DNA of 63,627 nt, the filler included, from Candidatus Woesearchaeota archaeon (GTDB lineage Archaea > Nanobdellota > Nanobdellia > Woesearchaeales > BM511): NCBI GenBank assembly GCA_023266675.1. It is 5 parts of 5 records of this genome, joined end to end, with 100 filler letters (N's around TTAATTAATTAA, not from the genome) between each part and the next. Parts side by side here need not be neighbours in the genome. Positions count along the whole stretch, not along the records: positions 35,398 to 57,360 come from JAHFPP010000014.1; 4 more parts are not named here. One strand, given 5' to 3'. A program made the position numbers. Below, piece after piece: positions 39,001 to 45,000 of the stretch. How positions within the stretch are numbered: the first letter of the stretch is position 1; each line of letters starts with the position of its first letter.

Positions 39001-42000
39001 TTAAGTTATTTACTATATAGTGATGATATTATTTCAGAAGTCTTTTTAATTTAGTTATAAATACAAAATATATGAGAAGAATTTTTATAAAAGCAATAAG
39101 TTTATTTATGATACTTCTCTTCATAACTGGTTGCCAGAACAAAATTGAAAATAAAAATAATAGTGTAATAACTGAAGGTGAAAATATGCACGGATACAAA
39201 ATCAACGATGATTCAATGCTTTACTGGCTTGGCCACGACGGATTTAAAATAAAAACAAATGATAAAATAATTTATATTGACCCATTTGATATAAATGAGT
39301 CTGAAACTGCAGATATAGTATTGATTACGCATGCTCATTTTGATCACTGCTCAATAAAAGACCTGCAAAAGATAGTTGGCGACAAAACAACAATTCTTGC
39401 AACAGCTGATTGCACTTCTTCTTTTGCGGGAAAGATTGGTGGAAAAATGCAACTTGTAGCACCAAACAAGAAATTCAATGTCCAGGGAATAGAAATAGAA
39501 ACGGTGCCTGCTTATAACGTAAACAAGTTTCGCTCGCCAGGAGTTGTTTTTCACCCAAAAGAAAATGAGTGGGTTGGATATATAATTAATGTTTCAGGAA
39601 CAAGAGTTTACCATAGCGGCGACACAGACTTTATACCTGAAATGAAAAACATTAAAACCGACATTGCGCTTCTTCCTGTCAGCGGAACATATGTGATGAC
39701 GCCAAACGAAGCTGCAGAAGCATGCTCTGCAATCAACCCTAAAGTTGCAATACCAATGCATTACAACAAGATAGTTGGAACAATAGAATCAGCTGAGGAA
39801 TTTAAGCGACTTTCCAAATGCAAAGTTGAGATTATTTGATTAATGAAGGCATCAGAAAAGATTGATTACTTTCTGCGCCTAAGTGATGCGCCTAATTCAT
39901 CAGAAAACCCTGTATTTATGAGATTATGCATATTCATCTTTTCTATGGATGTATAATAATTATCAGTGATAAATCCAAAAGATATAGCGATTTTTCTTAA
40001 CTTTTCATTTTTATCTGAATCCTTCTTTTGTTTATCGGATTTTTTACCAGATATTTCAATCCCGATTAATTCTTCAATTGAATTTCCAGAACCATAAGTG
40101 CTTGCAGATTTCGCTTCCATAATAAAAGGTATGTGCCGATAGCTTATATACTGGTGCTTTAGTCAAAAAAATGTGCTGTTAATTTATCTTGAAGGCCGAT
40201 GCCCAAAGGAACCGCTGGACTCCTCAAATGTTCCACCTAACTCGTCCTCTTCGTCTTCTTTTTCTTTAGCAGAATAATAATTATTAGGTTTTATCCCAAG
40301 GTCAAGCGCATCTTCCTCGTCAAGAAGCTCTTTTTTCAGCTTTTTTTCAGTTCGCTTATATGAATCAGAAACGTTTAATTCAGACATTAACTCTTCAATG
40401 ACCTCCTCTTTATTTTCAGGTATTTTTACGCCAGTCATTTTCTGTTCCAAAGAAAGGTTGTCCTGTCTTGATTTAGGAATAACTCTCTTAACTGAGGTAT
40501 AATTTTTTCTGTTAATTATTTTTTTAGTCATCTTACAAAACCATATGCTGAGCGATATTAAATAGTTTTTGATAAAAGTGGCTCTGTCCGGAATTTCCGT
40601 CTGCGCCATTATTAGCTGTTATTTGCAAAGCAAATAATGGCTTGGCCAGACGTAACTGAATGAGCGTTTCGATGAAAATAAAATTTTCAGCGTGCCAAAA
40701 ATCTTTAATTTTTGTGCATTTTAGCGAATGAAGTGGAGTAGTGGAATTTCGGACAGAGCCGATAAAGATAGTAATGAATGTATTAATGTTTTTCTTTGTG
40801 CCCAAAAGAAGGCTTATGCGAGAGATAGTTTGCAGCAGCGATAAGAAGTATGCCTATTGCAAGATATAAAATGCTCAAAGGCGTTTCAAATGTCATCATG
40901 ATGACCTGCTTAAAGAAATACACTATAAGTATTATGATTATTACTTTTGTAAGCACTCCTTTCAAATCCTCAAGGGAATGAAACGTGAGCCACTTAGGAA
41001 AAGGAAGCGATTTGTCATCAATAAAATCTATTTTGCTAATAAACAATTCATATATTCCAAGCGCAATTATTATAAGGATTATTCCAAGCAGGAACTCATC
41101 AATTGAAGCAATCAGATAAACTACGATAACATTTGTTTTTAGTGCAGTTCCATCTTCAAATGAGTGCTTTATCTCGTTGAATGCTTCCATATTGCTGTGA
41201 ACGCCAAGATAAAACGCTGCCAAAGATGATATCATCAGTGAGAAAATTGCTATTAGTATAATGAATCGAAAGCTCCATAATGATTTTTCAAACTTTTGCT
41301 CAATCTTTCCTGCCATTAAAGTACATAAAGCGTGCTTATTAATAAAGGTTTATTTCAAAAAGGAGAAATAGAGCAATAAACAAGTGAAGACCTTATCCCA
41401 AAATATTTATAAATAACCTATGCGTCTAAAATTCTGAAATGAAAATACTTGCAATGCATTCTGATTATATAACATTTGAGCCCACAAAAAAAGCCATAAA
41501 ATCCGCCGAGGACATAGTTGAAGAAAAAAAGAGAATCGAAGAATGTCTTGTAATCTTTACATCAGTTGAAGAGGATGACAGCAAAAACAGCGAGCTTGCT
41601 TCACAAAAATTAGTCGCTGAAGCAAAAAAGATTGCAGACTCCGTTAAAACAAAAAAAATTGTTCTATACCCTTACGCGCACCTCTCATCAAAACTTGCAA
41701 AGCCTGATGTGGCAATAGCTGTCATGAAGAAAGCTGAAGAGCTTTTGAAAAATGAAGATTATGAAGTTTCTCGAGCGCCTTTTGGATGGTACAAAGCTTT
41801 TGAAATTAAATGCAAAGGACACCCTCTCGCAGAACTCTCACGGCAGATAAATGTTGAGGAAGAAAAAAAAGAAGGAAAAGAAGAAGGATTCTTTGTAGAC
41901 TCAAAAAAACTAAATGACAAGGAGAAAGTCAACCTCACAACATCACTTGTTGTAGGAAAAGCGATAAAGGAATTGTTTCCTGAAGCAGAAATTGGGATAA

Positions 42001-45000
42001 TCGGGTTTTACCACGACTCATCATTTGTTGACGTTGCAGGCGTACGGCTAAAGACTGAGGACATACCAAGGATAGACGCCAAGGTAAAGAACATAATAAA
42101 CCACAGAGTAAAGATAACAAAAGCATCAAAAGAAGAGATTAAAGGAAAATACCAAAAATTAGTCAACGAAGAGACTGGCGCTGAAGGATACAAGATAGAC
42201 AACCTAACTGTCGCCCCATTGTTTTTGCACCCGTTCTGCGAAGACGCGTCAGAAATTCACTCATTCAAAGTTTTAAATCTTGCAAGCGCATACTGGAAAA
42301 ACAACTCAAAAAACCCGCAGCTTGTAAGAATCTATTCTGTAGGATTCAAGACGACACTAGAGATGGATGAGTATATTAAAAAACATGAAGAAGCAGAAAA
42401 AAGAGACCATCGAAACATCACTAAAGAGCTTGACTTGGTTTACTTTCACGAATATGCTCCTGGTGCACCATTCTTTTTAAAAAAAGGCACAATAATGTAT
42501 AATCTCCTTATCGAATTTATAAGAGAGGAATATGAAAAGAGAGGATATGATGAAGTCATAACGCCACAGATGTACAACAAGAAGCTTTGGGAGATAAGCG
42601 GACACTGGGACCATTACAAGGAAAACATGTTCATAATAAACGTTGAAGGTCAGGAGCACAGCCTAAAGCCTATGAACTGCCCGTCACACTGCCTAATCTA
42701 CAAGAGAGACATCAAAAGCTACAAAGACCTTCCTTTAAGAATTGCTGACTTTTGCAACCTCCACCGAAACGAGCTTTCAGGAACACTCGCTGGACTCACA
42801 CGTGTACGAAAATTTTCGCAGGATGACGGACACATATTCTGCCGTTTTGACCAGATAGAAAAAGAAGTCTTGGAAGTGCTTGAATTCATCAAGTATGTAT
42901 GGACGAAAGTGTTTGACTTTAAGCTAACTTATTATCTGTCAACACGACCAGAAAAGGCGCTTGGAACAAAGGAGCTCTGGGACAGCGCAGAAGAAATACT
43001 ATCAAACGCTTTAAAAAAAGCAGGTATACAATACCATCTAAAACCTGGGGACGGAGCATTCTACGGACCAAAAATAGACATGGACATTGAAGATGCTTTG
43101 GGTCGAAAATGGCAGTGCCCAACATGCCAGCTTGATTTTAACTTACCTAAAAGATTTGAACTAACGTATGAAGGCGAAGACGGCAAAAAACACGAACCTG
43201 TAATGATTCACCGTGCAGTTCTTGGGTCCTTGGAAAGATTCTTTGGAATGATGACAGAGCATTACTCAGGAAAATTTCCACTATGGCTCTCGCCAATACA
43301 GGTTGAGCTAGTCACGGTTACCGACAGAAACATAGACTTCGCAAATGAAGTAAAAGAAAAAATGAAGAAAAGAGGAATACGTGTGGAAGTTGACAGCCGG
43401 TCTGAGACAATAGGCAAGAAAGTGAGGGATGCTCAGGCTCTAAAAATAAATTATATTATTACAATTGGCGACAAAGAAGTTGAGAAAAAAACGCTTGCTG
43501 TAAGAAGCCGTGACAATGAAGTGCGTTTTGACGTCAATATTAATGAGTTCATAGATGAATTAATTTTAGAAATCAAAGAAAAAAGAATAAGATAAATGCG
43601 AGAGTAAACTAAAAAAAAGATAAAAGGTGGTATTTATGGAACAAAATGTTGGAAAAGCAGATAAAATAACAAGAGCTGTCGTGGCGGTTATATTCTTAAT
43701 TTTAGGATACAGGCTTCACTGGGCATTTTATGCGCTGGCAGGAGTGATGATATTAGTTGCATTTACAGGTTTTTGCCCTATATATTCATTATTTAAGATG
43801 AATACGAATAAAAAATAATTTTTTTTAATAATTTCTTTAATTTTATTTAAAAATATGATAAAGAAGATTATACCAATAGAAATCTTTAAAAACACTTCGT
43901 GATTTCTAAAATACATGCCAGAAAGAAAAGGTGGAAACAGAAGAAAAACGAGACAGAAGTTCTCAAAAAGTCTTCGAGAAAAGGGAAAGATCTCACTTAA
44001 GAACTACTTTCAGGAGTTTGAAACAGGGGATAAAGTCACATTACTTATTGAGCCTGCAATACAGAAAGGAATGTATCATCGAAAATTCTACTCAAAAACA
44101 GGCGACGTCAGTGGAAAACAGGGAGAATGTTACCTTGTTGAGATACTTGACGGAAAAATGAAGAAGAAAGTCATTGTTCACCCTGTTCATATGAAGAGGG
44201 TCAAAAAATGAACCCTAAAATAATTTCTGAAGAGCCAATGAATATGGCAACTGTAAAAGTTGAACTTGAAAAAATCAGAAAAAGAGATACAGAACTTAAT
44301 ATGAGGGCCAATAAGACAGAAGAATATATCCATCAATGCTTTATTTTGAAAAAAAAGGAAGCTGAAGAGTTATACGAAAAAATAAATAAGATGGAGATAT
44401 CACGACTAAAGGATATTCACATTCATAAAATAATAGATATAATGCCTGCAACAGCCGAAGAGCTGAAATCACTTCTAACAGGATACACAATATCCTTGTC
44501 AGGCGAAAATCTGAAAAAGATTCTTGATGCGGTGGCTGAGTACCTCCCGCAAAAAAAATAAATTCTTTAAAAAAACACGAAAAAATGGGTGTTTTACAAA
44601 AGGTTTATAAATTTAAAAGTTATTAATGATAACAGGGGGTTACAATGCAAACAATACAAGCAAAGCAAAAAGAAGAATACACAATAATATTGGATTTTCT
44701 GCCAAACGGCTATCCTTTTGACAACACCCCTTCACACAGAAAAACATCAATAGCTCAGGCTTTAGGCGAAGAGCATTTTTCATTATTAGAACTTGTGCCA
44801 AAGAAAGATATTGCATTAACACAGCATCAGAGAGTATACATTGGCGAAGGAAAAAGGGATGAAATCCACCACATAAACGGAAAACTTCCACTTGACAAAC
44901 TGACAGGCGGCGCAAAAAGCGAGCTTGAATTCGTGCTTAACGACCTTGTAACAAAGAATGAAGGGAAATTTATTGAGTTCTTCAATAAGAGCCAACCACT

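What a model noticed while it worked through the whole genome (the two positions that open the first line are those of the whole stretch)
41439..43595. Chimeric threonyl-tRNA synthetase: archaeal DTD-like editing domain fused in front of a bacterial-type enzyme whose own [...]
g00846 (718 aa) joins the archaeal editing domain (res 1-143) to a bacterial-type ThrRS (res 167-716) that still carries the N2 editing domain but has lost its His/Cys catalytic motifs. Two non-homologous editing domains sit on one chain, the archaeal one apparently replacing the bacterial one.
Evidence so far: PDB: res 1-143 match archaeal ThrRS-NTD (E 8e-40), res 167-716 match E. coli ThrRS 1qf6 (E 6e-133). Same architecture in 8 of 201 order genomes incl. 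G000; all aligned copies lack the N2 HxxxH and CxGxH motifs (motifs recalled; calls 140, 142). Other relatives match only one of the two parts.
(Added by a program. Inside this text positions count along the whole contig: they may not be those of the stretch shown here. "Call 12" and the like, gene names such as g00115 and contig names such as C1 are that model's own, and its searches are not shown. The text may have been shortened before it was handed on; [...] marks where a part breaks off. The agent that wrote the report below was given it as the finding of a first reader that could run no searches.)

Follow-up and report, generated by a model that had tools for sequence, protein, structure and literature searches.

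The report
Threonine enzyme with swapped proofreader
A tiny archaeon's only threonine tRNA-charging enzyme carries an intact archaeal proofreading domain in front of a bacterial-type proofreading domain that has lost its active site but kept its tRNA-gripping part, which looks like a natural swap of one proofreading solution for an unrelated one.

Summary
Confirmed. The 718-aa ORF (41439-43595, +) is the genome's only ThrRS. An archaeal DTD-like editing domain (NTD) with its key residues intact replaces TGS/N1. It is followed by a bacterial-type N2 domain, core and anticodon-binding domain (ABD).

None of 106 such chimeras keeps H73, H77, C182 or H186; 62 of 62 ordinary enzymes checked keep all four. 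N2's tRNA-contact residues stay: Y205 and W206 in 106 of 106, R217 in 105.

Best reading: the NTD edits Ser-tRNA(Thr), and N2 survives as a dead acceptor-stem clamp. Editing is not assayed.

New here: the gene is a mosaic. Its core (about residues 316-617) is 77-80% identical to four ordinary Woesearchaeales-type enzymes, while N2 and ABD group with other chimeras. Cores appear to have been swapped many times, also among ordinary enzymes. Some relatives add a third, YeaK-like editing domain; others have no N2.

Pfam sees a plain archaeal ThrRS architecture, which may be why it was missed. Nine literature searches found no description. This scan noted the same architecture before on another genome (e1-5721131).

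The parts
41439..43595 (+). thrS, chimeric threonyl-tRNA synthetase, 718 aa, sole ThrRS found in the genome
   Evidence: (TIGR00418 658.9 bits, cut-off 383.65)
41439..41849 (+). Archaeal DTD-like editing domain (NTD, residues 1-137); H81, Y118, K119, E132 equal P. abyssi H83, Y120, K121, E134
   Evidence: PF08915 E 3.7e-53; alignment to 2hl1; conservation; predicted NTD-NTD dimer
41850..41915 (+). Charged linker, residues 138-159, where TGS/N1 would normally end; no TGS domain
   Evidence: pLDDT under 50 at 141-146; no hit to E. coli N1; 31 residues from R135 to the H73-equivalent, family range 28-67 in 101 rows
41916..42383 (+). Bacterial-type N2 domain and its helix to the core (residues 160-315), editing site lost: L166, L170, Q239, P260, F262, F266 stand for H73, H77, K156, D180, C182, H186
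   Evidence: fold kept in the model; PF07973 not matched
42291..42329 (+). Retained acceptor-stem contact hairpin of N2: Y285, W286, N292, R297 (E. coli Y205, W206, N212, R217)
   Evidence: 106, 106, 106 and 105 of 106 chimeras; roles of Y205 and R217 from PMC3592468
42384..43289 (+). ThrRS-C aminoacylation core (about residues 316-617), of separate recent origin; C414, R443, H465, H591 equal E. coli C334, R363, H385, H511 (their zinc-ligand and motif-2 roles are recalled)
   Evidence: 77-80% protein and 70-74% DNA identity to G140, G083, G050, G175, confined to this stretch; residues
43290..43592 (+). Anticodon-binding domain of ThrRS-C type, grouping with other chimeras
   Evidence: PF03129; trees and identities

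Best explanation
This is a working housekeeping ThrRS in which proofreading has passed from the bacterial-type N2 domain to an archaeal DTD-like NTD fused in place of TGS/N1.

Shown from sequence: the core and ABD are intact ThrRS-C type; the NTD pocket is intact; the N2 His/Cys site is replaced by mostly hydrophobic residues that are themselves conserved across the family; the N2 hairpin is kept.

Inferred: (1) the core charges Thr and sometimes Ser. (2) N2 no longer hydrolyses but still grips the acceptor stem through Y285, W286 and R297, which explains why it is kept. (3) Ser-tRNA(Thr) is hydrolysed by an NTD dimer by the tRNA 2'-OH-assisted mechanism known for archaeal NTDs, either between the two subunits of one enzyme or between enzymes.

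History: the dead N2 and the ABD form a stable chimeric frame; catalytic cores were repeatedly exchanged into it by recombination near the conserved KRDHR and GKFPLWL stretches; NTDs are also exchanged with archaeal-type (ThrRS-R) genes.
For: Sole ThrRS with intact core residues.

NTD residues invariant in 109 of 109 rows, including the Lys whose Met mutant is severely compromised and the His whose Ala mutant is inactive in PabNTD (PMC4491819).

N2 His/Cys kept in 0 of 106 chimeras against 62 of 62 ordinary enzymes, and lost again in 26 of 26 chimeric genes fetched from the phylum sample (these may overlap the 106).

Y205 binds G1-C72, and the R217 equivalent is needed for charging in yeast (5.2% activity left) (PMC3592468).

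The model keeps the N2 fold: mean pLDDT 91.9; 1qf6 aligned over 580 columns, rmsd 3.2.

NTD homodimer predicted, score 0.69 against best control 0.25 (mark reached by 20 of 30 solved pairs and 1 of 23 single chains; runs agree in at least 66% of contacts; pLDDT at least 84), with E132 touching H81 across subunits. Like dimers are solved, so the pass may be from memory.

Mosaic: sliding windows; chimera monophyly rejected on the core (lnL 1356 lower, p-AU 2.5e-5) while the same 37 rows need only 2 changes on the ABD tree; 40 of 99 chimeras have an ordinary core at 70% identity or more, 0 of 99 for N2 or ABD.
Against: No editing assay exists.

NTD side chains Y120 and E134 are dispensable in vitro (PMC4491819), so their conservation is weak proof of activity.

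R217 directs the 3' end to the N2 site in yeast, which is now dead. How the CCA end reaches the NTD is not shown, and the model's domain arrangement is uncertain (pTM 0.68).

The 101 database chimeras were ranked by likeness to the query's residues 1-320, which favours dead N2. The profile search found one chimera, P0125, with 3 of 4 His/Cys kept.

Dead N2 also occurs without any NTD: 16 of 120 representatives aligned with 0 of 4, some through poor alignment. Loss of N2 therefore does not need the fusion.

The rows for the AU tests were picked after seeing the first trees.
Confidence: 0.75

Rival explanations
1. The NTD is kept mainly for another job (removing D-amino acids or glycine from tRNAs, or editing in trans), and Ser-tRNA(Thr) is cleared poorly or by another factor such as the nearby AlaX-type protein.
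For: NTDs deacylate Gly-tRNA(Gly) faster than Ser-tRNA(Thr) in vitro (PMC4491819). An AlaX-type protein with intact HxxxH and CxGxH lies at 45287-46441. A free-standing, diverged NTD homolog occurs beside an intact N2 enzyme in G007.
Against: The chimeric NTDs are interleaved with, and as conserved as, those of canonical ThrRS-R. N2 loss tracks NTD presence in the order sample. No YbaK/ProXp family member was found in G000 (95.9% complete).
Confidence: 0.12
2. Order of events reversed: N2 died first in an editing-deficient lineage, and the NTD was recruited later as a rescue. The present-day mechanism is the same as in the best explanation.
For: The dead N2 sits on a long branch. N2 decay without an NTD exists elsewhere.
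Against: No dead N2 without an NTD among 61 ordinary enzymes fetched from the order (not all were fetched). P0125 shows a fusion with H73, H77, K156, D180 and C182 still present, though from one contig only.
Confidence: 0.3
3. N2 still edits, using a rebuilt site, and the enzyme has two live editors.
For: The replacement residues are conserved (Q156 in 95, P180 in 74, F186 in 84 of 106) and the fold is kept.
Against: All four His/Cys residues are gone and mostly replaced by hydrophobics. The Cys is crucial and H73/H77 pivotal in published work (PMC12003907, PMC3592468). N2 is less conserved among chimeras (mean 38%) than among ordinary enzymes (54%).
Confidence: 0.06
4. The fusion is an assembly artefact.
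For: Draft genome of 83 contigs.
Against: One open frame. 101 database proteins share the architecture, four of them with 85-92% core identity. One contig of run X1 spans 41300-42960, across both junctions, without differences (this run may be the source of the genome).
Confidence: 0.01

Closest known systems
Archaeal-type ThrRS (ThrRS-R; P. abyssi, M. jannaschii; NTD structures 1Y2Q, 2HL1, 4RRF)
   Same: N-terminal DTD-like NTD with intact pocket; same Pfam string PF08915 + PF00587 + PF03129.
   Different: Core and ABD are ThrRS-C type (49% to the E. coli core against 21-28% to ThrRS-R cores). An N2 domain sits where ThrRS-R has its own linker.
Bacterial-type ThrRS (ThrRS-C; E. coli 1QF6)
   Same: N2 fold, core and ABD in the same order; core residues and Y205/W206/R217 kept.
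   Different: No TGS/N1; N2 lacks H73, H77, K156, D180, C182 and H186; an unrelated editing fold is fused in front.
Split crenarchaeal system ThrRS-cat + ThrRS-ed / ThrRS-2 (Sulfolobus, Aeropyrum)
   Same: A non-editing catalytic enzyme is proofread by an archaeal NTD (PMC3592468, PMC4491819 passages).
   Different: There the NTD is on a separate protein with its own ABD and works in trans. Here it is on the same chain, ahead of a whole dead N2.
Chimeric LeuRS of Natrialba magadii (PMC4005665, abstract seen) and recombinant TyrRS (10.64898/2026.05.28.728509, passages)
   Same: Natural aaRS mosaics of bacterial-type and archaeal-type parts; intragenic recombination.
   Different: In what I read these swap tRNA-binding or core segments. 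Neither describes two unrelated editing folds on one chain with one dead.

Membership tests
ThrRS-C (bacterial/eukaryal type) | ThrRS-C type catalytic core with C334/R363/H385/H511 | tested here: met
   TIGR00418 over cut-off; residues
ThrRS-C (bacterial/eukaryal type) | TGS/N1 domain | tested here: not met
   No hit to E. coli N1; no such Pfam hit. Some ordinary relatives of about 585 aa also gave no N1 hit.
ThrRS-C (bacterial/eukaryal type) | N2 with HxxxH and CxGxH | tested here: not met
   Fold present, motifs absent
ThrRS-C (bacterial/eukaryal type) | ThrRS-C type anticodon-binding domain | tested here: met
   Chimera ABDs average 43% to ordinary ThrRS-C and 33% to ThrRS-R
ThrRS-R (archaeal type) | DTD-like NTD with H83/Y120/K121/E134 | tested here: met
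ThrRS-R (archaeal type) | ThrRS-R type core | tested here: not met
   21-28% identity to ThrRS-R cores; NF003068 420.9 bits, under its cut-off of 484
ThrRS-R (archaeal type) | NTD homodimer with cross-subunit Glu | tested here: inconclusive
   Model passes, 0.69 against best control 0.25, possibly from memory of solved dimers
ThrRS-R (archaeal type) | Ser-tRNA(Thr) deacylase activity | not testable with these tools
   Needs a biochemical assay
Split ThrRS-cat / ThrRS-ed system | NTD on a separate NTD-ABD protein | tested here: not met
   The single PF08915 match in G000 is in this ORF; NF011500 190 bits, under its cut-off of 362

The most novel reading that the evidence does not exclude
In these small archaea ThrRS behaves as a plug-in system. 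The editor (NTD, live N2, or an added YeaK/ProXp-ST1-like domain, up to three unrelated editing folds on one chain) and the aminoacylation core are each swapped as cassettes under selection. The switch trades an oxidation- and zinc-sensitive Cys editor for an RNA-assisted one. Because the N2 domains hold the NTDs apart, NTD dimers may link ThrRS dimers into higher oligomers that edit in trans.
Probability: 0.25. Interest if true: 0.82.

Novelty: new variant of a known kind. Interest (0 to 1): 0.63.

Why it matters
The papers I read treat N2 and the DTD-like NTD as alternatives: about 30% of archaeal genomes have N2 and the rest have the NTD (PMC12003907). ThrRS-R and ThrRS-C are held too divergent for homologous recombination (PMC3191353). 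This family has parts of both on one chain and separates N2's tRNA-clamp role from its catalytic role, which gives a natural test system for how one proofreading module displaces another and how an editing site is reached.

Pfam reads the protein as an ordinary archaeal ThrRS, so domain-based counts can misfile it. The repeated core exchange also means whole-gene ThrRS trees are unreliable in this group.

Tried and rejected
ABD inherited from the archaeal-type gene (a ThrRS-ed-like frame): rejected for the main family, 43% to ThrRS-C against 33% to ThrRS-R. Only P0128 fits it.

A simple series from live N2 to dead N2 to no N2: not supported. The 8 N2-less proteins in the core tree form their own clade, and 6 of their ABDs lie outside the chimera cluster.

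Independent origin of the outlying fusions from N2 alone: not shown. One clade for all 19 chimeric N2 rows is not rejected (p-AU 0.525, long branches, bootstrap unsettled).

The genome-contig scan with P0125 returned no genome with that fusion among the 80 loci kept; 9 had an NTD and all were archaeal-type by their core scores.

No RNA holder listed. Sigma-70 scan of the upstream region found nothing and does not suit archaea. G+C by domain (0.37-0.41) was uninformative. A motif pattern was miswritten, so NTD residues were not checked in those 40 genes. Sequence look-up of earlier findings returned nothing. Korencic 2004 (PMC478561) is not held. PMC5388404 passages did not mention this architecture.
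Full report
OBSERVATION. The ORF at 41439-43595 (+) encodes 718 aa on contig C46. tblastn finds no second ThrRS in G000, and PF08915 matches once; the genome is 95.9% complete. Pfam gives PF08915 (1-137), PF00587 and PF03129, and no PF07973. PDB search gives the archaeal NTD at 1-143 and E. coli ThrRS at 167-716. There is no TGS/N1 hit. The AlphaFold model has mean pLDDT 91.9 and pTM 0.68, with low confidence only at 141-146; it matches 1qf6 over 580 columns at rmsd 3.2. Homologs are labelled Woesearchaeota or Nanoarchaeota by their sources.

DISTRIBUTION. Of 201 order genomes, 186 match ThrRS and 33 carry an NTD. Of those 33: 8 chimeras (G192 split over two contigs), 1 NTD plus bacterial-type core without N2 (G185), 21 archaeal-type (G104 by its linker only), 1 free-standing NTD (G007), 1 cut right after the NTD (G101) and 1 not fetched (G135). 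The protein search listed 120 of 3864 hits; 101 have NTD, N2 and a bacterial-type core, 7 lack N2 and 12 are archaeal-type. In a phylum sample 83 of 301 genomes have PF08915. I fetched 40 of these, chosen by frame length and so not at random: 26 chimeras, 9 without N2, 5 archaeal-type. Chimeras are common in family f94 (18 of 25 fetched) and occur in other orders of the class. Tallies include genomes marked unpublished (G112, G121, G132, G183, G356), and G132 was one archaeal-type row; no conclusion depends on them.

THE TWO EDITING SITES. E. coli numbering was checked on b1719. After dropping two duplicate rows, 0 of 106 chimeras keep H73, H77, C182 or H186; 8 keep K156 and D180 (one subgroup); 106 keep Y205, W206 and N212; 105 keep R217. 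All 62 ordinary enzymes checked keep the four His/Cys residues: 61 from the order (the 25 best-scoring plus 36 spread down the list) and E. coli. The NTD keeps H81, Y118, K119, H128, P129 and E132 in 109 of 109 rows. To test the ranking bias, a profile search of 1.84 billion representatives gave 147 new proteins, 8 with NTD plus N2: five keep 0 of 4 His/Cys, two keep 1, and one (P0125) keeps 3. Against a strict link, dead N2 also occurs without an NTD: 16 of 120 aligned representatives keep 0 of 4, some through misalignment; 13 more were too short to align.

MECHANISM. Published work gives the residue roles. The Cys of CxGxH is crucial and is oxidised by H2O2 (PMC12003907, passages). H73 and H77 are pivotal, Y205 binds the first base pair, and the R217 equivalent is needed for charging and translocation (PMC3592468, passages and section 18). 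The NTD is a dimer with a cross-subunit Glu; K121M is severely compromised, H83A is inactive in PabNTD, and Y120 and E134 are dispensable (PMC4491819, passages). A two-copy model of residues 1-320 pairs through the NTD only, score 0.69 against best control 0.25 (20 of 30 solved pairs and 1 of 23 single chains reach the mark; contacts agree at least 66%; pLDDT at least 84; may be from memory). I infer that the NTD clears Ser-tRNA(Thr) and that N2 is a dead clamp for the acceptor stem. The one tRNA-Thr found has a U discriminator, the base a review links to NTD specificity (PMC11295145, passages). Open: whether two NTDs on linkers of about 30 residues can meet within one ThrRS dimer. That the N2 domains lie at opposite ends of the E. 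coli dimer is recalled, not measured here.

MOSAIC HISTORY. Against four ordinary enzymes (G140, G083, G050, G175) the query is 21-25% identical in N2, 77-80% in the core and 42-54% in the ABD. Windows switch near residues 315 and 612, and DNA identity of 70-74% is confined to gene nt 948 to about 1850. The same pattern shows in P0005 versus P0002 and P0093 versus P0090. On a 174-row core-plus-ABD tree the chimeras fall in about 13 places. On 37 rows picked after seeing that tree, the core needs 12 changes (10 forced by strong branches) and monophyly is rejected (p-AU 2.5e-5), while the ABD needs 2 changes and rejects the query's core group (p-AU 2.4e-5). Dead N2 domains cluster apart from live ones, though long branches may help that. 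Chimeric NTDs are interleaved with archaeal-type NTDs, and monophyly is rejected on 33 rows (p-AU 4.6e-5). G163, of the same family, has an archaeal-type thrS after the same translin, peptidase and hydrolase-like genes, with a 67% identical NTD (the third label is my reading). So the NTD end is shared at one locus while the rest differs; the direction of replacement is not resolved. Core exchange is also seen among ordinary enzymes, so it is not special to chimeras.

COMPARISON AND NOVELTY. It charges like ThrRS-C and most likely edits like ThrRS-R, but fails a defining feature of each, so it is filed under neither. The closest functional precedent is the split ThrRS-cat and ThrRS-ed pair. Searches (open-licence PMC and bioRxiv only) found no description of this architecture. 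Besides the papers above I saw passages of PMC11580382, PMC9437257, 10.1101/2025.10.16.682753, PMC3191353, PMC5388404, 10.64898/2026.05.28.728509 and PMC4427996, the abstract of PMC4005665, section 18 of PMC11295145, and a four-term search of the PMC12003907 supplements (one unrelated hit). Subscription papers, Korencic 2004, figures and the other supplements were not seen and could mention it. This scan reported the same architecture on another genome (e1-5721131); that note is not independent support, and its 'stages before and after' is only partly borne out, since most N2-less forms are a separate lineage here.

VERDICT. Real, conserved and apparently undescribed in the library searched: a new variant of a known kind. 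Interest 0.63; confidence in the mechanism 0.75.

Noticed in passing
P0020, P0024, P0029, P0054, P0085; also the 919-935 aa frames in L221, L235, L236: Triple forms of about 910 aa with a PF04073 domain between the NTD and dead N2. P0024 and P0085 are 37-38% identical to E. coli YeaK over about 155 aa. That YeaK is ProXp-ST1, a Ser/Thr-tRNA deacylase, is recalled. The three loci were judged by length only.
   Followed up: partly
L040 (G185), P0103-P0105, P0108, P0114, P0116, P0120, P0127, P0129-P0131, P0176, P0181; 9 of 40 genes: NTD fused directly to a ThrRS-C core with no N2 (about 560-590 aa). P0181 is labelled Nitrososphaerota by its source. A second hybrid type.
   Followed up: partly
L004, L006, L007, L008, L010, L011: Ordinary enzymes also share one core across unrelated flanks: L004 and L007 are 87% identical in the core, 55% in N2 and 44% in the ABD. 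The selective cause is unknown.
   Followed up: partly
P0125 (710 aa, one 22-kb contig): NTD resembling Bathyarchaeia fused to an N2 with H73, H77, K156, D180 and C182 kept and H186 changed to F; a possible early stage.
   Followed up: partly
P0128 (712 aa, one 3.4-kb contig): NTD and ABD flank a partly decayed N2 and a ThrRS-C-scoring core; its ABD groups with ThrRS-R (support 0.98).
   Followed up: partly
P0123, P0124: NTD plus dead-N2 chimeras labelled Micrarchaeota by their sources.
   Followed up: partly
Family f1: G000, G052, G163, G201: One family holds a chimera (G000), an archaeal-type gene at the same locus (G163), an ordinary N1-N2 enzyme (G052) and an N2-only match (G201).
   Followed up: partly
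window 45287-46441 (+): 384-aa AlaX-type protein (tRNA_SAD plus DHHA1) with intact HxxxH and CxGxH.
   Followed up: no
G000:C29, L183 430-2832: 800-aa ORF with an AlaX-type editing motif pair whose N-terminus looks like a PheRS beta subunit start (recalled likeness).
   Followed up: no
L063 (G007:C8) 1978 onward: Free-standing, diverged 145-aa NTD homolog among radical-SAM-like and ThiF-like genes (labels recalled), in a genome with an intact N2 enzyme.
   Followed up: no
window 46903-48366 (-): 487-aa thymidylate synthase domain protein fused to DUF4346.
   Followed up: no
whole window: The window joins five contigs (C43, C44, C45, C46, C50) with N runs, so neighbours across N runs are not real.
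   Followed up: yes
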